A DNA stretch of 64,000 nucleotides from the NCBI GenBank assembly GCA_963815095.1, contig CAWFFH010000003.1:992001-1056000 (forward strand), written 5' to 3'. The notes below the pieces were generated by a model. The model searched no databases. It was given only the letters and a program-made list of their open reading frames with translations, and was not told the DNA's origin. Positions 4,843 through 58,592 of this stretch are shown here, one piece after another. Made by a program: the position numbers and the translations under genes. Position 1 is the stretch's first letter. Each line of letters starts with the position of its first letter. This DNA comes from Candidatus Bathyarchaeota archaeon (lineage in GTDB: Archaea; Thermoproteota; Bathyarchaeia; Bathyarchaeales; Bathycorpusculaceae).

Positions 4843-5685
4843 TTGGCAGTTTTCGTAACTAAAGCAGACGGTTCCAAACAGTTATTTGATAAAGAAAAAA
4901 TAGTAAGGACCTGCCAACGAATTGGCGCAAATAGCGAGGTATCTATTCAAGTCGCGCAAGAAGTGGAAAAAAACCTCTACGAAGGCATAACAACCCAGAA
5001 AATCCTTCAAATAATTTTCACCTTAATGGGTGAACACAAACCCGCAGTCAAACACCTATTCGACCTAAAATATGGCATAAGCCTAATGGAACCTAAACCC
5101 GAATTCGAAGCCTTTGTCCGCGTTCTCTTAGCTCATAGCGGTTTTCAAGTTAAACCGAACACGATTCTGAGGGGATTGTGTGGGGAGCATGAGGTGGATG
5201 CAATAGCCACTAAAGATGGCTTAACTTATTTTGTGGAAGCAAAACATCATTTTAACTATCACACCCTGACGGGTCTTGACGAGAGTCGTATAGCTCGAGC
5301 AATCATAGAAGACGTGACAGAAGGCTACGCAAGTGATGCAGCAAAAATCAAAATTGATCGCGCAATGATAGTTACCAACACCCGATACTCCGAGCATGCC
5401 ATAAACTATGGTCGTTGCCGTGGTATTTTTCAGGTGGGGTGGGCTTCTCCTGAAGGTTTTGGTTTAAGAGAGGTAGTGGAGAAACATAAGTTGTATCCTT
5501 TAAGTTGTCTTCGAGGGGTTAGTACGGAAACGAGGCTGCGTCTGGTTGAGGCGGGAATTGTGCTCATAAAGCAGTTGTTGGAACAGGATAGCAGATATAT
5601 TGAAAGGAAAATCGGGTTATCGAACGAAGTTGTTTTGTCTATAATGGAGAAAGCCAGACACACAACAGAAACAATATGGTATTAG
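4843..5685 (+). CDS. ATP-cone domain plus Mrr-like restriction endonuclease domain protein
   Basis: N-terminal V-x-K-x-DG..FDKEKI ATP cone; EVDAIA...VEAK PD-(D/E)xK motif; possible C-terminal HhH. Confidence 0.85.
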   Translation: MAVFVTKADGSKQLFDKEKIVRTCQRIGANSEVSIQVAQEVEKNLYEGITTQKILQIIFTLMGEHKPAVKHLFDLKYGISLMEPKPEFEAFVRVLLAHSGFQVKPNTILRGLCGEHEVDAIATKDGLTYFVEAKHHFNYHTLTGLDESRIARAIIEDVTEGYASDAAKIKIDRAMIVTNTRYSEHAINYGRCRGIFQVGWASPEGFGLREVVEKHKLYPLSCLRGVSTETRLRLVEAGIVLIKQLLEQDSRYIERKIGLSNEVVLSIMEKARHTTETIWY

Positions 5686-6491
5686 GCTTTGAGTGGTTTG
5701 GAGATATCGCCCGAAGAATTCCTTTTGTTTTCTTTGTGTGGGTGTGGGGCGATAATATGGCACATTACCCTTTGGGGTTTGGTTTTTTTTACCTGTTGTG
5801 ATGCAACAGAGGACATGATTGCCATTTTGAGGGTATGGTTGGGTAAATGTGTTTTTTTGGGTTTTTGTGTGTGACAAAAAGTTGTGTTTTGATATGTGAA
5901 GTTTTATGTTTTGTTTGGTGAAATATGGCGGATTGTTCCAATTTAAGATGAATATGTATGTTGCAAATGGGGTTTAGGTTGGGTGATATGGCTGGTTTGT
6001 GGCGGTTTTTGGTAAATCGGTTGTGTTTGGGGTTTTTTCGGTTCCCTATTTTGATGTTTTTTGGCTTATTCTGCCCTGTTTTGGAGCTGTTTTGTCGTAT
6101 CTGGGAGAGTTTCTTACTTAAAAAAGCATAGCGTTGGGCTGAGTATCGGCGAGTAGATAGGTGTGTTAAGAGTTTGGAGCAGACCGCGTGAGAGGGATAG
6201 CGGTTGAGGGCTTGGAGTTCTGGTTTGCGGGGTGGATTGGTTCACACAGTAATGTTGGTTTGTATGTTGGGCTGTGTGGGTGTTGTGTGGAGGGATGTTG
6301 GGTTTTCTATTCCTGTGCCATGTGGAGCAGCCTGATAAACTGCAAAAACGGCAAGCGTGACGGAAAGGTCAGTGCTACTTTTGCCGTGACTGTGGCTATA
6401 TGTTTTCTGAGGGCTCCACAAAAAGCTATTTCTAAGTTGACTAAACAATTACCCACTTAGAAAGAAGAAAATGTATGCTTGAGTTATTAAA

Positions 6492-6716
6492 TCAATATTT
6501 TTCCATTACTTTTCTAGTTGCGATTTCAATATCTTCCACTTTAATGGTTTTTCTTCGGGCATGAATGGAATAATCACGTGCTTCTTTAGCAATTTTAACG
6601 CCAATTTCCTCGAGAACTTTTGCAAGTAACTCCGCTGCTTCTTCACTCACTCTTTCTGCTCCTGCTTTCTTACATAATCTGTGCATTGGAGCCACGGCTA
6701 TTTCTAATTCGTTCAT
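6492..6716 (-). CDS. Archaeal histone (HMfA/HMfB family)
   Basis: [19 protein letters not shown]...[12 protein letters not shown] histone-fold signature. Confidence 0.95.
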
Positions 6717-6840
6717 ATCGACTTTCTCCGCAGTCTCTTTTTATTTTTAAGTCAATATTAAGCTTTGTTATCTATTTCATCATTTTTTAGCAAATTATAA
6801 ATACTAATAGCCACATAAATTGAATCCCGAGGTTATTTTA

Positions 6841-13191: not shown

Positions 13192-13446
13192 ATGTCGTTC
13201 TACGTTTACATTCTGCTCTGTATGGATGGAAGCTTCTACACGGGTTACACCAAGGATTTGGATGAGCGGTTAAAGCAGCATGAAAACGGGAAAGGCGCAA
13301 AATACACCAAAGCTCATAAACCACAAAAAATCGCGTATGTGGAGCTTTTCGGTTCCAGAAGCAGCGCAATGAAGCGTGAGAGGGCAATAAAAAAGCTTAC
13401 CCACCAACAAAAGCGCGACTTAATTTGTTCTCAGAGCAAGAAATAA
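13192..13446 (+). CDS. GIY-YIG nuclease (UPF0213/YhbQ-like)
   Basis: YVYIL.C.DGS.YTGYT.DL..R..QH..GKGAKYT. Confidence 0.92.
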   Translation: MSFYVYILLCMDGSFYTGYTKDLDERLKQHENGKGAKYTKAHKPQKIAYVELFGSRSSAMKRERAIKKLTHQQKRDLICSQSKK

Positions 13447-13496: not shown

Positions 13497-14732
13497 TTAG
13501 ATGAGTAAAGTTAAGGCTGCACCAGTAATTATTGGAATCAGCACATTATCGTTTACTGGTAAAGGCAAGACTTCGATTGTCATGGCAATCGCTGCCCCAG
13601 CCAAAGCCAACCATGGCGAAACAAAGAATGTTCCAGCCAAAAACGCAAAGAAGAAACCAGCCAACGAACCTTCCCACGTCTTTCCTTTGTTAAATGGCAA
13701 GGAAGTGGAAATTAATCCTCCAAAAATCGAAGCTGCGCTGTCGCCTAAACAGAACATGGCAATCGCTGCTCCGGCTGCGTGAGTTGGAAACAAAAGTAAA
13801 GTCGTGACTATTCCAAAGGCAAAGTAAAGAGGTGATGCAGCAAAACCGTAAAGTTCAGACTGAGAAGCTGCATGACGCGTAATAGCTGAAACTAAAGTTA
13901 ATTCGCGCCCTTCTAAACGCCTAAGTTCGGAGACTGTATAGACGATGGCGATTAGGATGATTAATGCGGCGACAACAGGGACAGTGATTAACCCTGCAAT
14001 GACAGGCATAAAAAATCCTGCAGCATGAATGTCTTCTCTTACAAGATCATTTATCGACGGAAAAGATCGTTTATGCTTATCTCCGTCAATGACGTGTAAA
14101 ATGCTTGAAAGTTTACCATTAATTACTCTGTCAGCCTTGATGCGGAGTACAAAATCAGCGTTAAAACCAATTTTTAACACTTCAGGCGCGAAAATGCAAC
14201 GGTTGTTTCGGTCATCAGCGACAACCACGCAATCCTTTAGCTCCAAGTTTTCGGCGGCTAATATTTTGAGTAGAATTTTCAATTTCCCGGAAGGTTGAAT
14301 GGCGTCACCGTGTATCTGGCCTGTTAACTTTCCATCTTGGGTTTCAACGTCGATGCCGTAAGCGTATTCTGCACTTAAGCAATCGGCTAACTTTTTAACA
14401 ATGACTGTTGGTAACCCTGAACTAATTAAAGCAATCTTGCAGTTCCTCTTTTTTAGTTGATTAAAAATGCTTTTTAGAAAGGGCGTTGCAGGAATCTTGT
14501 CAAAGATGCACTCCAGGGTTTCAAGTTCTATGCCTTTTAGATTGCTGAAAACATGCTTTAATGCTGATTCGAGCTTTAAAATGCCTGCTTCATAAAGAAA
14601 ACCGAAGAAAAGAAGTTTAATTAGCTTAAATAACCCTAAAGTTTTGCCCAATTCAAAAATAAAGCGGTTTTTGGGGATGAGCACTCCTTCGACGTCGAAA
14701 ACTACAAGTCTGGGTTTTTCCGTTTGAGCCAT
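13497..14732 (-). CDS. HAD-IB phosphatase (SerB-like) fused to a SEC59/DGK1/VTE5-family CTP-dependent lipid kinase
   Basis: FDVEGVL, ISSG, ADDRNN at the N-terminus; TM region with GDSAAS, KTWEGS, DN.LIP. Confidence 0.8.
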   Translation of the reverse strand: MAQTEKPRLVVFDVEGVLIPKNRFIFELGKTLGLFKLIKLLFFGFLYEAGILKLESALKHVFSNLKGIELETLECIFDKIPATPFLKSIFNQLKKRNCKIALISSGLPTVIVKKLADCLSAEYAYGIDVETQDGKLTGQIHGDAIQPSGKLKILLKILAAENLELKDCVVVADDRNNRCIFAPEVLKIGFNADFVLRIKADRVINGKLSSILHVIDGDKHKRSFPSINDLVREDIHAAGFFMPVIAGLITVPVVAALIILIAIVYTVSELRRLEGRELTLVSAITRHAASQSELYGFAASPLYFAFGIVTTLLLFPTHAAGAAIAMFCLGDSAASIFGGLISTSLPFNKGKTWEGSLAGFFFAFLAGTFFVSPWLALAGAAIAMTIEVLPLPVNDNVLIPIITGAALTLLI

Positions 14733-14794: not shown

Positions 14795-16129
14795 TTATCC
14801 TGTCTGGGTACATTGGTGCTCTTTATTTTGTAGCTCTAAGGGACATCCGCCACCACAAACTTGCAGTTGGTCACAGTCCTTGCATTTTTCCTCTACAAAT
14901 TCTCTTTTTCTAAGTTTTTCTGCTATGGGATTGTGCCAAATCTTTTCCCAGGGTTCGGCTAAGATGTTTCCGAGGCTTTCGAAGTAGCTTTGGCAAGGGT
15001 AAACGTCGCCGTTTGGTCCAACGCAAGCGTTTATCATGGCTGCGGTGCAGCTTTTTACGCCTAAACCCAACTGCACTGGGTCAAATTGGCAGTACTGGGT
15101 TGGCGTGTACCAAAGGAACTTGAGGCCAATCAATTGGGCTTTGTCTCGGATTTGAGGCAAAAGAATCTTCAGATCTTCTACCGATAAAGCGAATTCTTCG
15201 CTTGCTTCTGGTGCTTTGCCTGAGTAGATAAGGCTGTTGCAGCCAAACGCGTCCACGCCAAGCCCTTTGATGTAATCGACGGTTGTTAAGAAGTCGGCTG
15301 CGTTATGTTTGCTCAACGTGGTGTTGGTTGAAACATAAATTTTTGATTGAACTGCATTTCGGATTCCCGCAATGGTTTCTTTCCAACTGCCCTTCGCGTC
15401 TGTCATTTTATCGTGAATCTGGGGCTTGTGGGATTCCAACGTTACCTGAACAAAATCTAAACCTGACTTCTCAAGCACATCCACAAACGCTTTATCCTTG
15501 AGCTTTCGCCCATTACTAATCAAACCCGTAACCATGCCTTTGTTTTGAGCGTACAAGAGCAGTTCAGGCAAATCTTCCCGCAAGGTGGGTTCGCCGCCTG
15601 TGAATGTTAAGATGAAGACGCCGATGTCGCTGAGCTTATCAATCACGCTTTTCCACTGTGCCGTTGTTAGTTCGGGGGTTTCGTGTGGTCCGCCAGCGTA
15701 GCAGTGGACGCAGTCGTTTTGGCACCTAAACGTCAAAGCTAAATCCATGCGAAGCGGCGCAGAATACTGGTAGCTAAAGGGCTCCATTTTTTCGATTTCA
15801 AGAAAGCTCACAGGGTCAATTTTCGCAGTCTGCGCAAGTGTACTTACCGTGTAAACAAGCTTCTCGTAATCGGCTTTGGCAGTTTCAGCACCAACGCGGT
15901 ACATTCCCCGGATTTTTTTAACTACATCTTTTTCGGGCAAGCCCTGCATAAAAAAGTAAGCTAATGCCGTTGCCGTTAGGTTCAGATGCAGGATTCTGTC
16001 GCCGTTAATCACCATAACGCCCTGTCCACTTGCTTCAACACGAAGCTGCAAGGACATCCCTGCGAACTTGTCCTCTCCGCGGTAACTGTATCTTCCAAAT
16101 GGGATGGTTTTTTTCTTAAAGAAACTCAT
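14795..16129 (-). CDS. Radical SAM/SPASM protein with N-terminal PqqD/RRE domain
   Basis: CQNDCVHC, GGEP, SPASM C..GDVYPC..CKDC..CGGGC; N-terminal LNLTA...AKADY RRE-like segment; start reassigned to ATG 16129. Confidence 0.9.
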   Translation of the reverse strand: MSFFKKKTIPFGRYSYRGEDKFAGMSLQLRVEASGQGVMVINGDRILHLNLTATALAYFFMQGLPEKDVVKKIRGMYRVGAETAKADYEKLVYTVSTLAQTAKIDPVSFLEIEKMEPFSYQYSAPLRMDLALTFRCQNDCVHCYAGGPHETPELTTAQWKSVIDKLSDIGVFILTFTGGEPTLREDLPELLLYAQNKGMVTGLISNGRKLKDKAFVDVLEKSGLDFVQVTLESHKPQIHDKMTDAKGSWKETIAGIRNAVQSKIYVSTNTTLSKHNAADFLTTVDYIKGLGVDAFGCNSLIYSGKAPEASEEFALSVEDLKILLPQIRDKAQLIGLKFLWYTPTQYCQFDPVQLGLGVKSCTAAMINACVGPNGDVYPCQSYFESLGNILAEPWEKIWHNPIAEKLRKREFVEEKCKDCDQLQVCGGGCPLELQNKEHQCTQTG

Positions 16130-16131
16130 AT

Positions 16132-17766
16132 TTAATGGCCTCCTCCGCCTGCACAGGCGCAAGCGCATGAAACGCAAGCGCAGGCACAGGCACATGCCGC
16201 ACACGCACAGACACAATCCGCCTTTGGATGAGCTGGATCATGAGACGCTTTTGGCGGCGCTGGAACGATAGCGTTGGCGAATTTTTCCATGCTACCAACT
16301 ATGTTGTTTGAGGTTTTTTCGACTGATGTGGCGATGTTGTTGGCGAAGTCTGCTCCTGGAATTTTTGGAGCCGGACCAGACTGCGTTGGTACGTTAACGT
16401 TTGGCGAATATGTTGGGTTTGGATGATATGTTGTATAACCGTACCACCACCAGAACCACAATGGATTAGGCTGAATATAGCCTGTCCTGAACACGGTTTC
16501 AGTTCGTGTCCGCTGGTTAGGGTCAAGCAAAAGCCAAAGCAGTTGCTCATCGTAAGCATTAGCAGCCAACTCAACTGTGCCAGCTTGTTCCACTTGAGTC
16601 CAAGCTTGAGCAGCGATTTTTCGGTAATAATCCACTGTGTCTTTTCGGCTGTAGCCCTGCAGCTTCTGTTCCACCGTGTCACGTAGGAACATAATTGTGT
16701 GTGCAAGTTTTTCCTCGTCGAGGCTGCCATCGGTTTTAAGTGAGTTCAAGAAATCGATCTCGTAATACCTCAGGGGGTCGTCTTTGGTGCCCGTTTTGTT
16801 TTCGAAAGGCGGCAATAATTTTAGTTTTAAGGAGGGTTTGGTTTCTTGCGCCCAGACCGCTCTTTTCTGTAAGAGGCTATAGAGAATTTCGGTAACTATC
16901 TGGGGCGGCTTCATGTCAAGGAGGTAAGAGGCTTCAACCGCGGTTAAGCCACGTTTAACGCCTAAGCTTTCCATGCCGACTTTCGGTGAAGTATAGCTGC
17001 TTTTGCTGAGTGCTCTAATTATTAAGGCGAAAATGGCAATTGCAAATAAAACCCCAACAACACCTACTATAATTCCATAAGAGCCCAGGCTGAATCCTCC
17101 CCCTCCCGAACTCGGAACGTAGTTGGGCAAAAACTTTGCTGGAAAAGAAACACCTACCAAAAACTGCTCATTTGGTTGGATGACGGGTTTTTCCCAGTAA
17201 ACCGTCAATTGCCCATTAACGGTGGAGGTGCCGTTATAGAAGTTCTGGGTAGTTTTCACATCAGCTACAGTGACATCGGGCGGCAAAACAATTTGGACAC
17301 GCACATCGTTGATGGCTGTGTCGGATATCCACTGGGGAATAAACTGCATCCCAAAGTTTCCAGAGTTCTGGGTGTCATTGCTTATCATGCCTGCAACGTT
17401 AGTTGTAACCGTGAACCAGACTGATTGTCCAGTGGTTAAGGGCTGGTTTAATGTGACATCAATTCGGTAGTCGCCTCCGCTGCTGGCGTCGACAACATTG
17501 AGCGAGTTGCCGTATTGATCTACTGCTTGGCCAGGTGTGAAGTCGCTTTTGGGTTGTCCAACGTAGAATCCGTGTAAGACCCCTGAGGTTACTGTTAGGG
17601 TTATGTTGTAGGTTAAGTCAATGGTGCCATCTTGGTTGATGAAGATTTGAGCCCACTCATGGTCAACTGTGTATGTCAAGCTTTGTGCGTTGACGCTGCT
17701 TGTCGCTGAAACTGTAACCGCCAAAATCAGCAGTAAAGCGAAAAGCAACGGAATTTTTTTTACCAT
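16132..17766 (-). CDS. Single-pass membrane protein (DUF2207-like ectodomain) with C-terminal Cys-Ala repeat tail
   Basis: Signal peptide, beta-rich ectodomain, TM near aa 230-252, cytoplasmic domain ending CVCACAACACACACVSCACACAGGGGH. Confidence 0.85.
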   Translation of the reverse strand: MVKKIPLLFALLLILAVTVSATSSVNAQSLTYTVDHEWAQIFINQDGTIDLTYNITLTVTSGVLHGFYVGQPKSDFTPGQAVDQYGNSLNVVDASSGGDYRIDVTLNQPLTTGQSVWFTVTTNVAGMISNDTQNSGNFGMQFIPQWISDTAINDVRVQIVLPPDVTVADVKTTQNFYNGTSTVNGQLTVYWEKPVIQPNEQFLVGVSFPAKFLPNYVPSSGGGGFSLGSYGIIVGVVGVLFAIAIFALIIRALSKSSYTSPKVGMESLGVKRGLTAVEASYLLDMKPPQIVTEILYSLLQKRAVWAQETKPSLKLKLLPPFENKTGTKDDPLRYYEIDFLNSLKTDGSLDEEKLAHTIMFLRDTVEQKLQGYSRKDTVDYYRKIAAQAWTQVEQAGTVELAANAYDEQLLWLLLDPNQRTRTETVFRTGYIQPNPLWFWWWYGYTTYHPNPTYSPNVNVPTQSGPAPKIPGADFANNIATSVEKTSNNIVGSMEKFANAIVPAPPKASHDPAHPKADCVCACAACACACACVSCACACAGGGGH

Positions 17767-18113
17767 TTTGGTTCCTCAGTAATCTCAAAAGTGGTACCGC
17801 AGTAAGGGCACTTAACGTATGGTACACCTGAAACAATCTTGATTTGGTCAGCGCTAATTGACCCGCCGCAGTTGGGGCATTTGATCTGCGCAGCCTTCAT
17901 TTGTCCTGAAACCTTCAGTTGCTGGATAACCGTTTTGGGTTTGCGGGTTGTGTAGTAGATTCCTACGATTATGGCTAAGCCAATTATGAAGAGTATGCCG
18001 CTTGTTGCAAGACGCGCTGATGTAGCTTGCACTGAAGCTGCGAGTGCAAAGATAATTGCAAGAAAGAACACAACTGCCGCGGCTATGCCGCCAAGGATGG
18101 GTAAGATTCTCAT
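17760..18113 (-). CDS. Membrane protein (2 TM) with C-terminal zinc ribbon
   Basis: CPNC...CPYC; overlaps the start of the next gene; ATG 18113 preferred (TTTAAAT TATA upstream); ORF is open to 18203. Confidence 0.8.
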   Translation of the reverse strand: MRILPILGGIAAAVVFFLAIIFALAASVQATSARLATSGILFIIGLAIIVGIYYTTRKPKTVIQQLKVSGQMKAAQIKCPNCGGSISADQIKIVSGVPYVKCPYCGTTFEITEEPKW

Positions 18114-18389: not shown

Positions 18390-21197
18390 GTGTCTAAGAT
18401 GAATGGATCGTTAAAGAAGAGCAGGCTGATTGTGTATATCGCGTTTATTATTCTACCGCTCTTAATTTTCCCTGTCAATGCAAACTGGGTAATGTTCCGC
18501 GGGGACCTCTCCCGCAGCGGCGCCGTAGCAACCGACTGGACTCCCGGACAGGTTACGTGGAATTTCTCAACCGGTGACAAAGTTAGGTCCTCACCCGCCA
18601 TTTCAGACGGAATAGTCTACGTTAGCTCATACGACAACTATGTGTACGCACTTGATGGCGCAACTGGGGCTAAACTTTGGAGTTTTAAAACTGATGGCGA
18701 CGTTTATGCTTCTCCCGTCGTTGCTGATGGTGTAGTCTACATTGGGTCGCAAGACGAAAAATTATATGCCCTCAATAGCTCCACAGGCACCCAGATCTGG
18801 AGCAGAGCTTTCATCAACGGCTACCATACCTCCACCGCAGCGGTGGCGAATGGAGTTGTATACTTTGGCAGCGGCAACGGTACTATCTATGCGCTCAGCG
18901 TCTCGGATGGGTCGACGATTTGGAGTTTTAGAGTCAACTGTAACCCTTTCTCTTGTCCAGTCGTAGTCAATGGGGTTGTCTACATCGGCGCAATCGATGC
19001 CAGCTCGGGGCAAATGTATGCGCTGGACGCAGCCACAGGCGCCAAAATCTGGAATTTTTCAACAGCTACCCCGAACAATATGGTTTTTTCTTCGCCAGCA
19101 GTCGTTAACGGCGTGGTCTATTTCGGAGCCGATGACCGCAACGTTTACGCCCTAAACGCCGCAACGGGGGAGAAAATCTGGAGCTACTATACAGCTGCAC
19201 TGACCGAGTCATCCCCTGCAGTAGTTAACGGAGTCGTCTACATCGGTGCCAATAACGGCAACCTATATGCCCTAGACGCCTCATCAGGAGTCCAAATCTG
19301 GCACTTTTCCTCATTCAATTGCATAACCTCAAGCCCTGCAGTCCTTGATGGAGTAGTATACGTCGGCTCGTGGGACAACAACCTCTACGCAGTCAACGCT
19401 TCCAACGGCATCGAACTTTGGAGATATACAACAGGCGGCTCAATCTCCAGCTCACCAGCCGTGACAAAGGGAGGAGAAGTCTACATCGGATCCGATGACA
19501 CCCGCATATACTGTCTCAACACAAAAAGCGTTTCGCCATATTACCAAATAAATGGAGCCAGTGGATCAATCAACAGCGGAGGCATCAAACAGTTTATCAC
19601 GATTAATATCGATGGCACCATCACCCCCTCCACGACACCAATAGCCAGATATGGAAACCGATACACACTCACAGGCGACATCGGCGGCTCCATAAAAATT
19701 CTAAAAGATAACATAGTATTTGACGGCCAAGGTCACACAGTCTATGGAAATGGCTCAGCTAAAACCGGTGGCGACATAACCCTCAATCGCCGAGATCACG
19801 TTACAGTAATGAACACTGTCTTCACTGGGTGGTTCGGTACAGCCATAAGCGTGGGCTCAATGGATACAGTCGACCCCAACAATCAGACGGGCAGCAGCAA
19901 CTGCATAATCACCAACAACACAATAACAGGCGGAACCCCAAACTACTGTTTCTGCATCTGGGTCGAAGGCACCAACAACTCTATCACAAACAACCACATC
20001 TACGGCAACAACGGTATGGGTATAGCGCTTGAGAGAGGCACTAATCACCTAATTGCAAATAACCTAATTGAAAACAACGGAATGTACGCCATAAGTTTTG
20101 AATACGGTCAAGCCACAGTACGCGGCAACCATCTCAATAACAACACAGGCGGAGCATACTACTTCACCGATAGCCTCATGGGCATAATGACCCCCATACA
20201 GGATATCGACAGCTCCAACCTCGTAGACGGCAAACCAACCTATTACTGGGTAAACCAGCGCCACCAAACCATTCCAACCGACGCGGGAGTCGTGATTTTG
20301 ATTAACTGCAGCTACATCACTATAAGCGGGTTAAACATCGATAAGGGCGGAAAATACAACTCTTACAGCATCTTCCTCTCCGACACAACCAACTCCATAA
20401 TCAGCGACAACACCATCACAGCAGGCAACGGAATCAGAATACAACAAAACAAAATCTATGGCTCGAACGTCTCCGTCCTTAGAAACTACCTCACCACGGG
20501 CATGTGGACGGGCAGTAACACAACCATAGCCTCCAACGTCTTTGTAAGTAAGGGTATAATGCTGGGCGTTGATGTCGTAGTAGCTTACAACAACTTCACA
20601 GGCTGCGACGTCGCAATCAACATGGATAGCTACAACAGCACAATCCGAAACAACAACTTCCAGAACAACCAAGTAGTATTTCACATGTACGGAGGCGGCA
20701 ACAACCAAATCTACCATAACAACTTTATTTCCAACACCAAACAGGCGGAAGAGCAGCACTCTGACTCGTCACGCTGGCCAATAGACGGGTTCTATGCCTC
20801 AGTCAATAACACTTGGTACCAACCTTTACCGGTGGGCGGAAACTACTGGAGTGACTATAAAGGCAATGACTTAAACAACGACGGAATCGGCGACACACCA
20901 TACCACATAATTGAGAACTATACCGATCTTTATCCACTAATACAGCCCACAAATATTATTCAGCCCACCACGGAGAGTCTATTACCAGCAGAAACGGGGC
21001 AAATCCTAAGTCCAAATCCAACGGAAAAACCTGACCCATCCTCAACAAGTAATCTCCAAGTTAGCAGTGAACCGAACAAAACAAACTCACCCACTTCAGC
21101 TCTGCAATTACTTTGGGTGTTAGTGATACTAACAATTGTTGTTTTAACCACATTAGTTGCTTACCGCATATTCAAAAAGCGGCAAATGCCCAGCTAA
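18390..21197 (+). CDS. Cell-surface protein: PQQ-like/BamB beta-propeller repeats, NosD/CASH beta-helix, C-terminal TM anchor
   Basis: Repeated SSPAV.NGVVYIG...LYALDA.TG..IW units; GGNYWSDY..D.NNDGIGDTPY; S/T/P linker and TM. Confidence 0.9.
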   Translation: MSKMNGSLKKSRLIVYIAFIILPLLIFPVNANWVMFRGDLSRSGAVATDWTPGQVTWNFSTGDKVRSSPAISDGIVYVSSYDNYVYALDGATGAKLWSFKTDGDVYASPVVADGVVYIGSQDEKLYALNSSTGTQIWSRAFINGYHTSTAAVANGVVYFGSGNGTIYALSVSDGSTIWSFRVNCNPFSCPVVVNGVVYIGAIDASSGQMYALDAATGAKIWNFSTATPNNMVFSSPAVVNGVVYFGADDRNVYALNAATGEKIWSYYTAALTESSPAVVNGVVYIGANNGNLYALDASSGVQIWHFSSFNCITSSPAVLDGVVYVGSWDNNLYAVNASNGIELWRYTTGGSISSSPAVTKGGEVYIGSDDTRIYCLNTKSVSPYYQINGASGSINSGGIKQFITINIDGTITPSTTPIARYGNRYTLTGDIGGSIKILKDNIVFDGQGHTVYGNGSAKTGGDITLNRRDHVTVMNTVFTGWFGTAISVGSMDTVDPNNQTGSSNCIITNNTITGGTPNYCFCIWVEGTNNSITNNHIYGNNGMGIALERGTNHLIANNLIENNGMYAISFEYGQATVRGNHLNNNTGGAYYFTDSLMGIMTPIQDIDSSNLVDGKPTYYWVNQRHQTIPTDAGVVILINCSYITISGLNIDKGGKYNSYSIFLSDTTNSIISDNTITAGNGIRIQQNKIYGSNVSVLRNYLTTGMWTGSNTTIASNVFVSKGIMLGVDVVVAYNNFTGCDVAINMDSYNSTIRNNNFQNNQVVFHMYGGGNNQIYHNNFISNTKQAEEQHSDSSRWPIDGFYASVNNTWYQPLPVGGNYWSDYKGNDLNNDGIGDTPYHIIENYTDLYPLIQPTNIIQPTTESLLPAETGQILSPNPTEKPDPSSTSNLQVSSEPNKTNSPTSALQLLWVLVILTIVVLTTLVAYRIFKKRQMPS

Positions 21198-23892: not shown

Positions 23893-25329
23893 ATGCGTAG
23901 AGGCTTCATTTCAGTAATCGTTCTTCTTTTCATAATTTCTTTAACTATACTGCCGTCTGCCACCGTGAAAGCTCAATCCAAAACCATCATTGTCCCAGAT
24001 AATTATCCAACTATTCAAGCGGCTATTGATAATGCCAGTGCTGGTGATACGGTATTTGTGAGAAGTGGGACATACAACCAAAACATATCAATCGGCAAAT
24101 CCATTAATCTAATCGGGCAAAACTCTCAAACTACAAAATTGATAATGCCGCAATTTTACGTTTTCCATAATGGTCCTGCGGTTGCTCCACCACCTACCTA
24201 TGTTATTAACATTAATGCCAATGAAGTTACCATCAGCAATTTCACCGTTGAAAACCCCAACTATGGTGGAATTGGAATAAACTCTAACGGCGACGGAAAC
24301 CAAATAAACAGAATAAATTTTGATTCAGAAGAAATTGGCTTAATCGTAACCGGTTCTAATCAGTATATATCCAACAACCTAATTGCCAATGCAACACCTG
24401 GAATTCAAAGCAGCGGTTCATACAACCAAATTATCGACAATACAATTTCAAGCATCTCAGGTCAAATGTTCCTAAGTGGTTCAAATAACTTGTTTGCTGG
24501 AAACCAAATTACAGATAAAGCCTGGACTTTAATTTACTTGAAAAACGCATATTCTACCATCATGTATAATAATACTTTAAACAGGGCAGATATCGAACTG
24601 CAAAATTCTAATTCTAACATAATTTATAATAATACCCTAAACGGCGGCTATTTAGGAGTAGGTTATGACAAGTCACCGGCTTCAAGCAACCTTATAGCCA
24701 GAAACATAATAGAGAACACAAGGACTGATGGCGGAATAATCGTGTTTTCTGGGTCAAATAACGAGTTTTACGGGAACTTGGTTACCAGCAACAAAGTCGG
24801 ATTAGCTCTTGGTTTGACTGGAATTGGAGTGAATGAAAACAACGAGTACAACAATGTTTTCTTTTACAACATGTTTGTCAAAAACTCCGAGGGGAATGTG
24901 GTAAATCGGCAATTGGTCGATTCTAATTCTTTTGACAATGGGACGGTAGGCAATTATTGGGATGATTACTTAACTAAGTACCCTAACGCTACTGAGATAG
25001 ATAATTCTGCAATAGGAAATACACCCTACATTGTTCACAATAATGTAACGGATAATTACCCGCTAATGATGCCTTTTGACCTATCGAGTATAACCATTCA
25101 GTTTCCATCGTGGATAAATTCACTACCAAACTTGCGTACAACACCTACTTTTCCAACAATGACCACGCATAACACACAACCAAGCCCAACATCGACACCT
25201 TCTCCAACGCCCACAATTCCAGAGTTTTCTTGGTTAGCAATTTTACCCTTCCTCATTTCTATGCTTTTAGTTGAAGTGATACTCGGACATCGAAAATCGA
25301 CTTCATTGTGTAAGTTATCTATAAACTAA
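23893..25329 (+). CDS. NosD/right-handed beta-helix surface protein with PEF-CTERM-like anchor
   Basis: VPDNYPTIQAAI, Asn-rich repeats, GNYWDDY, IPEF + TM. Confidence 0.88.
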   Translation: MRRGFISVIVLLFIISLTILPSATVKAQSKTIIVPDNYPTIQAAIDNASAGDTVFVRSGTYNQNISIGKSINLIGQNSQTTKLIMPQFYVFHNGPAVAPPPTYVININANEVTISNFTVENPNYGGIGINSNGDGNQINRINFDSEEIGLIVTGSNQYISNNLIANATPGIQSSGSYNQIIDNTISSISGQMFLSGSNNLFAGNQITDKAWTLIYLKNAYSTIMYNNTLNRADIELQNSNSNIIYNNTLNGGYLGVGYDKSPASSNLIARNIIENTRTDGGIIVFSGSNNEFYGNLVTSNKVGLALGLTGIGVNENNEYNNVFFYNMFVKNSEGNVVNRQLVDSNSFDNGTVGNYWDDYLTKYPNATEIDNSAIGNTPYIVHNNVTDNYPLMMPFDLSSITIQFPSWINSLPNLRTTPTFPTMTTHNTQPSPTSTPSPTPTIPEFSWLAILPFLISMLLVEVILGHRKSTSLCKLSIN

Positions 25330-57089: not shown

Positions 57090-58592
57090 TTGTCTAACCA
57101 AGCTAAAACTCGGACAGTAGAAGAAATTAACCAGAAAATCCGCAAAGGCGACGCCCAAGTTTTAACCGCTGAAGAAATGAAAAAGCTGGTTGAAAGCAGC
57201 GGCGTCGAAGTTGCCTTCAAAGAAGTAGACGTTGTTACCACCGGCACTTTCGGAGCCATGTGCTCATCAGGTGCTGTGGTGAACCTTGGGCATTCTGACC
57301 CACCCATAAAGATTGAAAAGGCATGGATGAATGATGTGGAAGTTTGTCACCCCGGAGCCGCTGTGGACTTGTTTATTGGGGCTACTTGCATGTCGGACAA
57401 GTTGCCTTTCGAATACGGCGGAGGACATGTAATACAAGATCTGGTCGCGGGAAATGAGGTTGAACTCAGAGCCACCGCGTATGGGACTGACTGTTACCCG
57501 AGAACTTCAGTAAAAACAACCATAACCAAACACGATTTGAACCAGTTTTACCTGCTTAACTTCCGCAACTGCTACCAGCGCTACAACTGCGCCGTGAACA
57601 GCAGCGACGAAATCATCTACACTTACATGAGTAAACTTTTGCCCAGATTCCGAAACGCCACCTTCTCAGGCGCAGGCGAACTCAACCCACTCATGAATGA
57701 CCCTGACTATGAAACGATGGGTATGGGAACCCGAATATTCCTCGGAGGCGCTCAAGGCTACATCATAGGCGAGGGAACGCAGCATAGCCCCAAAAACCTC
57801 AACGGAACCCTGATGGTTAAAGGCGATGCAAAAAAGATGTCACCTGAATTTCTGCAAGGTGCCGCCTTCACAGGGTACGGAACGTCAATGTATGTAGGTT
57901 TAGGTATCCCAATTCCGATTCTAAACGAAGGTTTAGCAAAAAAAACTGCAATTCAGGACAAAGACATCCTAACCGACATCGTCGACTACAGTGTACCCCG
58001 ACGTGACCGCCCCAAGTTTGGGCAAGTCAGCTACAAAGAATTAAAATCAGGTTCCATCACCGTTAACGGCAAAAAAGTCCGTGTAAGCTCACTATCCAGC
58101 CTAAAAATGGCGAAAAAGGTATCTCAAACTCTAAAGTCCTGGATTGATGAAGGCAGTTTCTTGTTAACCTCGCCTGTTGAGCGGTTGCCAACAAACACAG
58201 TTTTTAAGCCCATGCGACAAACAGAGGAAATCCCGTTCGTTGTTAGCGTTATGCACCCGGCAGTTACATGCACAGAGGACGAAGAGATACAAGCCATCGC
58301 AAAACGCATCGTCACCAGATCAGTCAACCACATAGTCGTGGTGGATAGCCTGGGTAAATTGCTTGGAATCGTCACTTCATGGGACGTCACGCGGGCTATG
58401 GCGGAAGGCAAAACAGCATTAGCCGACATAGAATCCCACAACGTCGTCACCGCAAAACCTGACGAGCCATTGGAGATTGCTTCTAAACGCATGGCACAAA
58501 ACAACATCTCAGCACTGCCCGTGATTGACATAGAAAAGAAGGTGCTGGGAATAATTACTGCAGAAGATGTTTCAAAACTGTTAGGACGGTAA
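57090..58592 (+). CDS. Homocysteine biosynthesis protein (DUF39 + CBS; aspartate-semialdehyde sulfurtransferase, MA1821-like)
   Basis: VDVVTTGTFGAMCSSG, GTDCYPR, GEGTQH, tandem CBS domains. Confidence 0.9.
   Translation: MSNQAKTRTVEEINQKIRKGDAQVLTAEEMKKLVESSGVEVAFKEVDVVTTGTFGAMCSSGAVVNLGHSDPPIKIEKAWMNDVEVCHPGAAVDLFIGATCMSDKLPFEYGGGHVIQDLVAGNEVELRATAYGTDCYPRTSVKTTITKHDLNQFYLLNFRNCYQRYNCAVNSSDEIIYTYMSKLLPRFRNATFSGAGELNPLMNDPDYETMGMGTRIFLGGAQGYIIGEGTQHSPKNLNGTLMVKGDAKKMSPEFLQGAAFTGYGTSMYVGLGIPIPILNEGLAKKTAIQDKDILTDIVDYSVPRRDRPKFGQVSYKELKSGSITVNGKKVRVSSLSSLKMAKKVSQTLKSWIDEGSFLLTSPVERLPTNTVFKPMRQTEEIPFVVSVMHPAVTCTEDEEIQAIAKRIVTRSVNHIVVVDSLGKLLGIVTSWDVTRAMAEGKTALADIESHNVVTAKPDEPLEIASKRMAQNNISALPVIDIEKKVLGIITAEDVSKLLGR

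What the first reader, a model, noticed from the sequence alone, without database searches (positions are those of the whole stretch)
14795..18113. Candidate new system: RRE-radical SAM/SPASM enzyme coupled to a membrane protein with a (Cys-Ala)n tail
Seen: three tightly packed genes (7-nt overlap, then a 2-nt gap) encoding a 2-TM Zn-ribbon protein, a 544-aa secreted single-pass membrane protein, and a radical SAM enzyme with a PqqD/RRE-like N-terminus and full SPASM motif. No small precursor peptide gene is visible. Established: RRE-rSAM-SPASM enzymes install Cys-to-carbon thioethers (sactipeptides, ranthipeptides) on short Cys-rich precursors. Inference: the substrate here is the cytoplasmic C-terminal tail of a large membrane protein. 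That would be RiPP-type chemistry on a receptor-like archaeal protein, or a membrane-tethered precursor released by proteolysis.
Basis: partly seen in the sequence, partly recalled or inferred. Interest (0 to 1): 0.9.

Follow-up and report, generated by a model that had tools for sequence, protein, structure and literature searches.

The report
Radical SAM enzyme paired with Cys-Ala-tailed membrane protein
A three-gene set found in many bacteria and archaea pairs a peptide-modifying radical SAM enzyme with a membrane protein whose short cysteine-alanine tail almost never changes, which points to an undescribed chemical modification of a whole membrane protein.

Summary
Three minus-strand genes (7-nt overlap, then a 2-nt gap) encode a 2-TM zinc-ribbon protein, a 544-aa signal-peptide/single-TM protein ending in a (Cys-X)n tail, and an RRE-radical SAM-SPASM enzyme. 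No curated family claims any of them.

The module is not a local oddity. The tail stays invariant while the protein body falls to 23-35% identity. Its codons are saturated with synonymous changes.

Membrane protein and enzyme are gained and lost together:
- Window's phylum, 401 genomes: 20 with both, 3 with the membrane protein only (two contig-end fragments, one weak hit), 1 with the enzyme only, 377 with neither.
- Chloroflexota, 251 genomes: 21 with both, always adjacent; none with only one.

Tail-bearing loci also occur in Planctomycetota, Myxococcota, Methanomassiliicoccales, Heimdallarchaeota and the cultured Ornatilinea apprima.

Most likely the enzyme modifies the tail in place, probably with Cys thioether cross-links to the invariant Ala/Val. 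The chemistry is inferred, not shown.

The idea of thioethers on whole proteins was published in 2026 (CrpC/CrpA, PMC13692751). That is a different enzyme family (32.7 bits against a cut-off of 525) and a soluble substrate. I rate this a new variant of a known kind, of high interest.

The parts
17760..18113 (-). Gene 1: 117-aa membrane protein with two N-terminal TM helices, a cytoplasmic C4 zinc ribbon (CPNC...CPYC) and a conserved C-terminal ...TEEPKW.
   Evidence: ORF. Zinc-ribbon families: MJ0042_CXXC at 24 bits against a cut-off of 20.9. Hydropathy and the alignment of relatives, all ending in EEP(K/L/T)W, are. It sits next to the membrane protein in 60 of 75 loci and in most loci of the window's phylum.
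16132..17766 (-). Gene 2: 544-aa type I membrane protein, the proposed substrate. It has a signal peptide, an outside beta-sandwich, one TM helix, a cytoplasmic domain and a Cys-X tail.
   Evidence: The only Pfam hit is a weak DUF2207 N-terminal match (E 0.006, 17.3 bits against a cut-off of 24.4). No NCBIfam hit.
17134..17685 (-). Extracytoplasmic beta-sandwich domain (aa 28-211).
   Evidence: AF2 pLDDT about 95. It matches the second lumenal domain of ribophorin I (6s7o_E: Z 16.2, rmsd 2.6, 177 aligned), Ost1 (Z 15.4) and the N-terminal domains of M1 aminopeptidases (Z about 13).
17008..17076 (-). Single TM helix (aa 231-253). The basic residues that follow it place the C-terminal half in the cytoplasm.
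   Evidence: The topology is inferred from the signal peptide and the positive-inside pattern.
16444..16950 (-). Conserved cytoplasmic domain (aa 273-441), mostly helical with a small beta hairpin.
   Evidence: pLDDT 90+. Invariant or near-invariant positions are listed. The only fold matches are weak (GOLPH3/Vps74, Z 6.8 and 5.7) and not significant.
16267..16356 (-). Two conserved amphipathic helices (aa 471-500) about 20 residues before the tail. They are the candidate leader-like recognition segment.
   Evidence: pLDDT 86-89, flanked by disorder. The segment is conserved across both tail types (consensus). Its role is inferred.
16135..16215 (-). The tail (aa 518-544): (CX)3-A-(CX)4-S-(CX)3-GGGGH, with ten cysteines.
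   Evidence: All 120 close homologues examined keep it, 78 of them letter for letter. It is invariant in 12 proteins that fall to 34% identity. Its codons are saturated with synonymous changes in 17 loci. It is predicted disordered.
14795..16129 (-). Gene 3: 444-aa RRE-radical SAM-SPASM enzyme, the proposed maturase.
   Evidence: It falls below every NCBIfam cut-off (best is NirJ2, 143 bits against 500).
15836..16096 (-). N-terminal RRE (PqqD-like) domain (aa 12-98): four short strands, then three helices.
   Evidence: One search gives the secondary structure. In one search SuiB aligns over model 14-438 to chain 4-428 (Z 23.9-24.4) and SkfB over model 25-431 to chain 12-390 (Z 27.1).
15701..15724 (-). 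CX3CX2C motif of the radical SAM [4Fe-4S] cluster (C136, C140, C143).
   Evidence: Invariant in the 12-sequence alignment. Present in 63 of 63 intact neighbouring enzymes.
14810..15091 (-). SPASM domain with the cysteines for two auxiliary clusters (C347...C429, plus C440 in most relatives).
   Evidence: Pfam SPASM, E 2e-10. Invariant cysteines are listed.

Best explanation
This is a self-contained protein-modification module found widely in bacteria and archaea.

Proposed mechanism:
1. The 544-aa protein enters the membrane with its ribophorin-I-like beta-sandwich outside. Its C-terminal half, ending in the disordered (Cys-X)n tail, stays in the cytoplasm.
2. The cytoplasmic RRE-radical SAM-SPASM enzyme docks through its RRE. 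The likely docking site is the conserved pair of helices about 20 residues before the tail. The conserved ...TEEPKW end of the Zn-ribbon membrane partner is an alternative site.
3. The enzyme then modifies the tail by radical chemistry. The most likely product is a set of thioether cross-links from Cys sulfur to a carbon of the invariant Ala/Val residues (sactionine or ranthionine type).
4. The product stays on the membrane protein as a fixed structural, redox or metal-handling element. It is not cleaved off as a peptide.

Shown here: the gene architecture, the domain folds, the extreme conservation of the tail, and the joint presence and absence of the genes.
Inferred: that the tail is the substrate, the docking site, the chemistry, and the function of the product.
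For: 1. Joint gain and loss in the window's phylum. Of 401 genomes, 20 hold both genes, 377 hold neither, 3 hold only the membrane protein and 1 holds only the enzyme. G276 and G264 are fragments at contig ends; G306 is a weak hit at E 9e-7. Within the window's own genus, 4 of 11 genomes have both and 7 have neither.

2. Joint gain and loss in Chloroflexota. Of 251 genomes, the same 21 hold the membrane protein and an enzyme of at least 414 bits, always next to each other on one contig. No genome has only one of the two.

3. Linkage in tail-bearing loci from many phyla. Of 75 loci, 63 have an intact family enzyme in the flank and 3 a split one. Four of the rest are cut by contig ends. In the other 5 genomes the enzyme lies elsewhere (474-607 bits), twice beside a second tailed copy.

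4. Linkage survives rearrangement. L018, L024 and the Planctomycetota-type loci have the order zn, enzyme, paralogue, membrane protein.

5. The tail is invariant, Ala and Val positions included, while the body drops to 23-47% identity. All synonymous codons are in use, and one Ser position uses both TCN and AGY codons. So selection acts on the peptide itself.

6. The enzyme has a peptide-binding RRE. Its nearest solved relatives are peptide maturases: SkfB at E 1.6e-29 by sequence, and SkfB, SuiB and CteB by fold.

7. In one genome (G013) both genes are decayed together.

8. No protease or exporter recurs near the module.

9. Precedent: CrpC, an RRE-rSAM-SPASM enzyme, installs thioethers on the 28.8-kDa protein CrpA (PMC13692751, sections 12 and 14).
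Against: - There is no direct evidence that the enzyme touches the tail.
- One enzyme of this clade (G400, 618 bits) stands alone. No membrane protein was found in that 95%-complete genome with the 70-sequence profile.
- C-X-C runs are also typical of metal-thiolate proteins (recalled), so the tail could simply bind metal.
- RiPP cores usually vary, whereas this one is frozen. That fits a cofactor-like product, but it also fits a metal site.
- In L019, L020, P0251 and P0266 the Cys block is internal and about 90 residues follow it. A free C-terminus is therefore not needed.
- In many bacteria a second paralogue without CX3CX2C and a SAM methyltransferase travel with the module. The window lacks them, so the chemistry may differ between tail types.
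- The window's own RRE scores below Pfam's PqqD cut-off.
Confidence: 0.55

Rival explanations
1. The tail is a metal-thiolate or iron-sulfur binding site, a metallothionein-like C-X-C array held at the membrane. The radical SAM enzyme does not cross-link it. It would either act on another substrate (the Zn-ribbon protein, a lipid or a small molecule) or use the tail as a cluster or sulfur carrier.
For: - The tail has ten cysteines in C-X-C spacing and is predicted disordered without a ligand.
- Neighbouring genes include NosD-like (periplasmic copper-binding family) surface proteins at 18390..21197 and 23893..25329.
- The Crp paper also suspects a metal role for its product (PMC13692751, section 14).
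- The frozen sequence fits a fixed coordination geometry.
Against: - A pure metal site does not explain why the residues between the cysteines are invariant Ala or Val rather than any small residue.
- It does not explain why an enzyme with a peptide-binding RRE is strictly co-inherited.
- The NosD-like neighbour is not conserved beside the module in relatives. Only the window's own locus L001 matched it, among the 26 loci (1.5-kb flanks) and the 75 loci.
Confidence: 0.2
2. The enzyme does modify the tail, but by different chemistry. Options are Cys to formylglycine or dehydroalanine (as in anSME), Ala or Val epimerisation, C-C cross-links, or modification followed by methylation in the lineages that carry the methyltransferase.
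For: - SPASM enzymes catalyse all of these. anSME is among the fold matches (Z about 23).
- A class I SAM methyltransferase sits beside the module in many bacterial and some archaeal loci.
- Sequence alone does not place the enzyme with sactisynthases. Its best NCBIfam hits are NirJ2, AhbC/D and PqqE, all far below their cut-offs.
Against: - Known RRE-bearing SPASM enzymes that act on Cys-rich substrates make thioethers. This rests on established knowledge and on the CrpC result in PMC13692751.
- anSME-type enzymes lack an RRE (recalled).
- The window's genome has no close homologue of the methyltransferase (best E 2.6e-7).
Confidence: 0.15
3. The membrane protein is a tethered precursor. After modification the tail is cut off and released as a small Cys-rich RiPP.
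For: The layout (a conserved segment, then a Gly/Ser-rich or Pro-rich linker, then a short core at the very C-terminus) resembles a leader-core precursor.
Against: - No protease or exporter recurs in 75 loci.
- The 500-residue body, including the outside domain, is conserved together with the tail. That is not expected of a mere carrier.
- The tail lies on the cytoplasmic side (inferred topology).
- In four proteins the Cys block is internal.
Confidence: 0.07
4. The tail is only a hydrophobic C-terminal membrane segment or lipidation site, and the gene linkage with the enzyme has no substrate meaning.
For: Kyte-Doolittle hydropathy flags residues 516-542 as hydrophobic.
Against: - AF2 does not model the tail as a helix (pLDDT 35-41).
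- A membrane anchor would tolerate Leu, Ile or Phe substitutions, and none is seen.
- The joint presence and absence in two phyla is too strict for chance linkage.
Confidence: 0.03

Closest known systems
CrpC/CrpA of Methanococcus voltae (enzyme family TIGR04463, rSAM_vs_C_rich); PMC13692751, 2026
   Same: An RRE-radical SAM-SPASM enzyme encoded beside a Cys-rich protein, not a short peptide, in a three-gene cluster. The product stays a protein. A metal-related role is suspected.
   Different: - The window's enzyme scores 32.7 bits against that family's cut-off of 525.
- CrpA is a soluble 28.8-kDa protein with ten 17-residue repeats carrying C-X-X-Q/D motifs and an N-terminal leader-like region.
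- Here the substrate candidate is an integral membrane protein with one short C-terminal (Cys-Ala)n block.
- The third gene here is a Zn-ribbon membrane protein, not a CrpA paralogue.
- The paper's main text has no occurrence of 'membrane' or 'DUF2207'. Its supplements could not be read.
Sactisynthases and ranthisynthases (SkfB, AlbA, CteB, PapB) and SuiB
   Same: Same three-domain layout: N-terminal RRE, radical SAM core and SPASM with two auxiliary clusters. These are the best sequence and fold matches: SkfB at E 1.6e-29 and Z 27.1, SuiB at Z 24.4, CteB at Z 21.5. Ala is a known sactionine acceptor (recalled).
   Different: - It falls below the curated cut-offs of all these families: SkfB 91.8 against 300, AlbA 75.4 against 850, StsB 83.5 against 625.
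- Their substrates are short, variable, exported peptides.
- Here the core is frozen, belongs to a 544-aa membrane protein, and no export or cleavage genes accompany it.
QhpD/QhpC of quinohemoprotein amine dehydrogenase (recalled, and cited as QHNDH in PMC13692751 section 14)
   Same: A SPASM radical SAM enzyme makes several Cys thioethers inside a protein subunit that stays part of a functional complex.
   Different: QhpC is a small soluble subunit with Cys-to-Asp/Glu links. No sequence relation was tested here.
DUF2207 (PF09972) membrane proteins and the ribophorin I / Ost1 lumenal domain
   Same: The outside beta-sandwich matches ribophorin I and Ost1 (Z 16.2 and 15.4). It weakly matches the DUF2207 N-terminal model. 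The overall plan (sandwich, TM helix, cytoplasmic part) is shared.
   Different: - The window's protein is below Pfam's cut-off (17.3 against 24.4), and 7 of 8 tested relatives from the other tail types have no Pfam hit at all.
- No paper links DUF2207 with radical SAM.
- Two distant DUF2207-like paralogues without a tail (L023, L026) have no such enzyme within the 1.5-kb flanks held.
PqqE/PqqD and mycofactocin MftC/MftB/MftA (cofactor-forming SPASM systems)
   Same: These are SPASM enzymes guided by a PqqD-type RRE that act on a precursor whose core is highly conserved, because the product is a cofactor and not an antibiotic. PqqE is among the top hits (114 bits; 6c8v at E 2.4e-23).
   Different: It falls below the cut-offs (PqqE 114 against 381, MftC 111 against 265). 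Those precursors are short free peptides, and their chemistry is not on cysteine.

Membership tests
RRE-dependent radical SAM/SPASM peptide maturases (architecture class) | CX3CX2C radical SAM cluster motif | tested here: met
   C136, C140 and C143 are invariant in 12 sequences. Pfam Radical_SAM, E 3e-23.
RRE-dependent radical SAM/SPASM peptide maturases (architecture class) | C-terminal SPASM domain with cysteines for two auxiliary [4Fe-4S] clusters | tested here: met
   Pfam SPASM at 41.2 bits against a cut-off of 21.5. The pattern CX13C...GX4C...CX2CX5CX3C is invariant.
RRE-dependent radical SAM/SPASM peptide maturases (architecture class) | N-terminal PqqD-like RRE (beta-sheet followed by three helices) | tested here: met
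   The domain aligns with the N-terminal domains of SuiB and SkfB. PqqD is the top Pfam hit in 7 of 7 N-terminal domains, above the cut-off in 2. The window's own scores 15.8 bits against 23.4.
RRE-dependent radical SAM/SPASM peptide maturases (architecture class) | Modifies a co-encoded ribosomal peptide or protein | not testable with these tools
   Only co-occurrence and linkage could be tested. Enzyme assay and mass spectrometry are needed.
CrpC family (TIGR04463, rSAM_vs_C_rich) | Score at or above the curated cut-off of 525 bits | tested here: not met
   The window's enzyme (G000:C3:1007254-1007763) scores 32.7 bits.
Named sactisynthase families (SkfB TIGR04403, AlbA NF012164, StsB NF045574) | Score at or above each curated cut-off | tested here: not met
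   91.8 against 300, 75.4 against 850 and 83.5 against 625.
Heme / heme d1 SPASM enzymes (NirJ2, AhbC, AhbD) | Score at or above the curated cut-off; no RRE; tetrapyrrole gene context | tested here: not met
   143.2 against 500, 132.5 against 650 and 130.4 against 500. An RRE is present, and no tetrapyrrole genes lie beside it.
ACGX-repeat system (TIGR04340 enzyme) | Score at or above the curated cut-off of 400 bits | tested here: not met
   74.7 bits. The 544-aa protein matches no NCBIfam model.
DUF2207 (PF09972) | Pfam gathering score for the N-terminal domain | tested here: not met
   17.3 bits against 24.4. Some close homologues carry a precomputed PF09972 label. The fold likeness to ribophorin I suggests a distant relation.
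Metallothionein-like metal-thiolate domain | Cys-rich C-X-C arrays that bind metal | not testable with these tools
   C-X-C spacing is present. Metal binding cannot be computed here. The invariant Ala/Val between the cysteines would be unusual for such a domain (recalled).

The most novel reading that the evidence does not exclude
This would be a new, ancient class of protein-borne modification shared by Bacteria and Archaea, Asgard lineages included. A radical SAM enzyme would zip an invariant (Cys-Ala)n tail of a ribophorin-I-like membrane protein into a ladder of thioethers. If the sulfur joins the Ala beta-carbon, the product is lanthionine made by a radical route. The result would be a fixed cofactor-like or metal- or electron-handling element on the cytoplasmic face of the membrane. 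A dedicated Zn-ribbon membrane partner would assist, and in bacteria also a catalytically dead paralogue and a methyltransferase.
Probability: 0.3. Interest if true: 0.9.

Novelty: new variant of a known kind. Interest (0 to 1): 0.78.

Why it matters
Radical SAM/SPASM maturases are known almost only from short secreted peptides. The first worked example on a whole archaeal protein appeared in 2026.

This module would extend that chemistry to an integral membrane protein. It is also far more widespread than the published case. The family has 1157 clusters at 50% identity. It occurs in about 5% of sampled genomes of the window's phylum and about 8% of sampled Chloroflexota. It is also present in Planctomycetota, Myxococcota, Methanomassiliicoccales and Heimdallarchaeota.

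A 19-27-residue sequence that stays letter-perfect across two domains of life is rare. It implies a strict structural or chemical role that nobody has described.

A cultured carrier exists (Ornatilinea apprima P3M-1, locus L054), so the idea is directly testable. It would also give a first functional handle on part of the DUF2207-like proteins.

Tried and rejected
**Complex prediction.** The enzyme (alignment A2) was folded with residues 455-544 of the membrane protein (alignment A1). Score 0.00 in two runs, controls not run, verdict 'no answer'. It counts neither for nor against binding.

**Expression.** No RNA holder was listed. Four DNA runs of one soil study hold 17-29% of the sampled words. 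No reads were laid. This says nothing about expression.

**Tail as a DNA repeat.** Rejected. Tandem Repeats Finder reports nothing there and codon use is mixed.

**Tail as a TM helix.** Hydropathy flags it, but AF2 leaves it disordered and no bulky hydrophobic substitutions occur. Kept only as a 3% rival.

**Longer TTG start of the enzyme at 16216.** Rejected. It runs through the tail-coding DNA in another frame, and relatives start at the ATG.

**Hidden small precursor gene.** None was found in the spacers. The promoter and terminator scans were at chance level.

**Cytoplasmic domain fold.** Only weak GOLPH3/Vps74 matches (Z 6.8 and 5.7), which is not significant for a helical domain.

**NosD-like / PQQ-propeller neighbour as a fourth component.** Rejected. 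Only the window's own locus L001 matched it, among the 26 loci (flanks of only 1.5 kb) and the 75 loci.

**Methyltransferase as a core part.** It is frequent in the other tail types. The cluster that counted it (56 loci) is contaminated by overlapping reading frames, so that number is an upper bound. The window's genome has no close homologue.

**Literature.**
- 'DUF2207' with 'radical SAM': 0 papers.
- 'DUF2207' alone: 9 papers, none on this, judged from the listing only.
- The tail's last ten letters as a text term: 0 papers.
- Two broader searches: nothing relevant in the listings.
- PMC12710340 (RRE survey): 0 occurrences of DUF2207, 'membrane protein', cysteine-rich, Chloroflex, Bathyarchae or SPASM.
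- Subscription journals and supplements were not searchable. Supplemental Data set 1 and Figure S3 of PMC13692751 could hold related proteins that I could not see.

**Bias to keep in mind.**
- The 75 loci were seeded on the tail peptide itself, so they cannot show tail-less relatives.
- The 2x2 tables use related genomes, so no statistical test is claimed.
- In one search the threshold of E 1e-60 was my choice. No hit fell between 275 and 590 bits, so the count does not depend on it.
- In one search I separated the active enzyme (at least 414 bits) from the paralogue (302 bits or less) by score and, by motif.

**Organism.** The name is not given by the tools. The Atlas's nearest clusters are mostly 'Candidatus Bathyarchaeota', which is a lead only.

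Full report
**1. What is there**

On the minus strand of the window lie three tightly packed genes.

- Zn-ribbon protein, 17760..18113 (117 aa). It has two hydrophobic helices and then a C4 zinc ribbon.
- A 544-aa protein, 16132..17766.
- A 444-aa radical SAM/SPASM enzyme, 14795..16129.

The first two genes overlap by 7 nt. The last two are 2 nt apart.

The 544-aa protein ends in CVCACAACACACACVSCACACAGGGGH. Tandem Repeats Finder sees no DNA repeat there, and the Cys and Ala codons are mixed.

No small precursor ORF is visible in the 276-nt upstream spacer.

The surrounding genes are ordinary archaeal housekeeping genes: aspartate kinase, carbamoyl-phosphate synthase, ADP-forming acetyl-CoA synthetase and a P-type ATPase. 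The Atlas's nearest clusters are mostly Candidatus Bathyarchaeota, which is a lead only.

**2. The enzyme**

Pfam finds Radical_SAM and SPASM. No NCBIfam model reaches its cut-off. The best is NirJ2 at 143 bits against 500, and 72 other families score lower.

CX3CX2C and the SPASM cysteines are invariant in an alignment of 12 relatives that fall to 42% identity.

An AlphaFold2 model (pLDDT 76.6, pTM 0.83) gives residues 12-98 as four short strands followed by three helices, which is the RRE topology.

The best fold matches are RRE-bearing peptide maturases:

| Match | Z | Model range | Chain range |
|---|---|---|---|
| SkfB | 27.1 | 25-431 | 12-390 |
| SuiB | 23.9-24.4 | 14-438 | 4-428 |
| CteB | 21.5 | 121-432 | 90-422 |

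By sequence the nearest solved protein is SkfB (E 1.6e-29).

PqqD (PF05402) is the top Pfam hit for the first 120-130 residues in 7 of 7 enzymes tested. It passes the cut-off in 2 of them. In the window's own enzyme it scores 15.8 bits.

The enzyme does not belong to the recently characterised CrpC family (TIGR04463): 32.7 bits against 525.

**3. The membrane protein**

An AlphaFold2 model built from 70 sequences (pLDDT 82.5) shows these parts:

| Residues | Feature |
|---|---|
| 8-22 | signal-peptide helix |
| 31-209 | beta-sandwich |
| 231-253 | one TM helix |
| 276-441 | well-ordered cytoplasmic domain |
| 443-462 | disordered linker |
| 471-500 | two conserved helices |
| 507-542 | disordered tail |

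The sandwich matches the second lumenal domain of ribophorin I (Z 16.2) and Ost1 (Z 15.4), and the N-terminal domains of M1 aminopeptidases.

The Pfam DUF2207 hit is below its threshold.

The signal peptide and the basic residues after the TM helix place the tail in the cytoplasm, where a radical SAM enzyme works. This topology is inferred.

**4. The tail is frozen**

- All 120 closest homologues (75-99% identity) end in the same tail. 78 are identical to the window's, and the rest differ at one or two positions.
- In 12 proteins from the window's phylum that fall to 34% identity, the cysteines, the alanines, one valine and a glycine of the tail are invariant. Mean column identity over the whole protein is 45%.
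- Over 17 loci every tail position uses both Cys codons or three to four Ala codons. One Ser position uses both TCN and AGY codons. Selection therefore acts on the peptide.

A profile search of 1.84 billion representatives found 1157 clusters at E <= 0.001. Of the best 150:
- 123 end in a Cys block.
- 2 carry it internally.
- 25 lack it. Of these, 19 are shorter than 450 aa and look like fragments, and 3 of the longer ones match only the outside domain.

The tail follows one grammar: blocks of (Cys-X)n split by a single small residue and closed by GGG plus one or two residues. The forms seen:
- The window's form is (CX)3-x-(CX)4-S-(CX)3.
- The commonest form is (CA)4-G-(CA)3-GGGR, invariant in 13 proteins of 35-47% identity.
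- Others are (CA)3-G-(CA)4-GGGR, (CA)6-GGGR and forms ending in GGGGCT.

**5. The genes travel together**

*Window's phylum (401 genomes).* The membrane protein was found in 23 and the enzyme clade (E <= 1e-60) in 21.
- 20 genomes have both and 377 have neither.
- The three with only the membrane protein are two fragments at contig ends (G276, G264) and one weak match (G306, E 9e-7).
- The one with only the enzyme is G400. Its enzyme (618 bits) sits among unrelated genes, and the 70-sequence profile found no partner in that 95%-complete genome.
- In the window's genus, 4 of 11 genomes have both and 7 have neither.
- In every locus with enough flank the order Zn-ribbon, membrane protein, enzyme is kept, or rearranged but still linked as in L018 and L024.
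- In G013 both genes are broken.

*Tail-seeded scan of one genome per species.* This gave 75 loci. Most are in Chloroflexota, including the cultured Ornatilinea apprima. Others lie in Acidobacteriota, Aminicenantes, Planctomycetota, Myxococcota, Hydrogenedentes, Sabulitectum, Pseudomonadota, a Clostridia bin, Methanomassiliicoccales, Thermoplasmatota, Heimdall- and Hodarchaeota, and Nanoarchaeia.
- 63 have an intact enzyme of this clade in the flank (at least 365 bits with the profile, with both Cys motifs).
- 3 have it split.
- 9 have none. Of these, 4 are cut by contig ends. In the other 5 the enzyme lies elsewhere in the genome (474-607 bits), twice beside a second tailed copy.

*Chloroflexota (251 genomes around Ornatilinea).* The same 21 genomes hold the membrane protein and an enzyme of at least 414 bits, always adjacent. 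One further genome holds only a paralogue-level hit (261 bits). 229 hold neither.

Related genomes are not independent, so I claim no P-value. Still, the pattern of joint presence, joint absence and joint decay in two distant phyla is what a substrate-enzyme pair predicts.

**6. Other parts**

- The Zn-ribbon protein accompanies the pair in 60 of 75 loci and always ends in ...EEP(K/L/T)W.
- 43 loci carry a second paralogue that keeps the RRE-like N-terminus but lacks CX3CX2C. In Chloroflexota it also lacks the SPASM cysteines.
- A class I SAM methyltransferase often follows. The window's genome has neither of these two.
- No protease or exporter recurs.
- In L019, L020, P0251 and P0266 the Cys block is followed by about 90 more residues. 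In L019 and L020 no Zn-ribbon gene was found in the 1.5-kb flanks held.

**7. Reading**

The simplest account is that the enzyme's RRE recruits it to the C-terminal region of the membrane protein, and that the enzyme modifies the tail in place. The conserved helices at 471-500 sit where a leader's recognition sequence would sit.

The invariance of the Ala and Val positions, not only of the cysteines, argues that they take part in the chemistry. They could be acceptors of Cys thioethers. A bare metal site would tolerate other small residues there.

This is inference. The rivals (a metal or Fe-S site, other radical chemistry, a released peptide) are listed with their tests.

**8. Known or new**

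Searches for DUF2207 with radical SAM, for the tail motif, and two broader queries found nothing on this system. An RRE survey paper does not mention it.

The closest published case is CrpC/CrpA (PMC13692751; abstract and sections 6, 12 and 14 read). There an RRE-rSAM-SPASM enzyme of Methanococcus voltae installs ranthionine-type thioethers on a soluble 28.8-kDa Cys-rich protein. That removes the conceptual first and raises the plausibility here. The enzyme family, the substrate architecture, the partner protein and the taxonomic breadth all differ.

That study screened for proteins with at least 5-10% cysteine in high-cysteine archaea. Such a screen would miss a 544-aa protein with ten cysteines.

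**9. Verdict**

- It is a new variant of a known kind.
- Interest is 0.78.
- Confidence that the three genes form one functional module is about 0.95.
- Confidence that the tail is the enzyme's substrate is about 0.65.
- The stated mechanism, with thioethers as the leading chemistry, stands at 0.55 as a package and about 0.4 for thioethers specifically.

Noticed in passing
L019:1489-3465 and L020:1225-3117 (also P0251, P0266): A variant of the membrane protein in which the Cys block is internal and is followed by a conserved extension of about 90 residues. In L019 and L020 no Zn-ribbon gene was found in the 1.5-kb flanks held. The extension might replace the Zn-ribbon partner.
   Followed up: partly
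L054:9141-10301 and the second hits in 43 of the 75 loci L035-L109: A paralogue of the enzyme that keeps a PqqD-like N-terminus but has lost CX3CX2C. In Chloroflexota it has also lost the SPASM cysteines; in Planctomycetota-type loci it keeps them. It looks like a catalytically dead partner.
   Followed up: partly
L054:10288-11058 and many other loci: A class I SAM methyltransferase lies directly after the module in many bacterial and some archaeal loci (Methanomassiliicoccales, Heimdallarchaeota). Its best NCBIfam hit, the DVU_1556 family, is far below the cut-off. The window's genome has no close homologue.
   Followed up: partly
L016 (G013:C55): In one genome of the window's family both the membrane protein (1 TAG, fragments) and the enzyme (several pieces) are decayed at the same locus.
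   Followed up: partly
L007 (G133:C6:28086-29426): The enzyme gene carries one in-frame TAG near codon 41 but is otherwise full length at 67% identity. It could be a sequencing error, a young pseudogene or a read-through.
   Followed up: no
L121 (G400:C123:4279-5631 and 5628-6749): This is the only orphan enzyme of the clade. It lies tail to tail with another radical SAM/SPASM-like gene (373 aa) and among glycerol kinase, PRPP synthetase and an aldehyde:ferredoxin oxidoreductase-like gene. No tailed protein was found in that genome.
   Followed up: partly
window 18390..21197 (+) and 23893..25329 (+): Two secreted proteins with NosD-like right-handed beta-helix domains. The first is fused to a PQQ-type beta-propeller and has a C-terminal TM anchor. 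Apart from the window's own locus, it matched none of the related loci held.
   Followed up: partly
window 13192..13446 (+) and 13497..14732 (-): A lone 84-aa GIY-YIG domain gene. Next to it is a 411-aa fusion of a HAD/SerB-like phosphatase with a C-terminal polytopic membrane domain, directly downstream of the enzyme gene.
   Followed up: no
L059:9040-9420 and 13 other Chloroflexota loci: A small ORF of about 127 aa recurs in 14 loci. In L059 it lies between the enzyme and its paralogue. Its function was not examined.
   Followed up: no
window 57090..58592 (+): A 500-aa protein with a sub-threshold match to methanogenesis marker 16 metalloprotein (167.6 bits against 364), in an organism that otherwise shows no methanogenesis genes in this window.
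   Followed up: no
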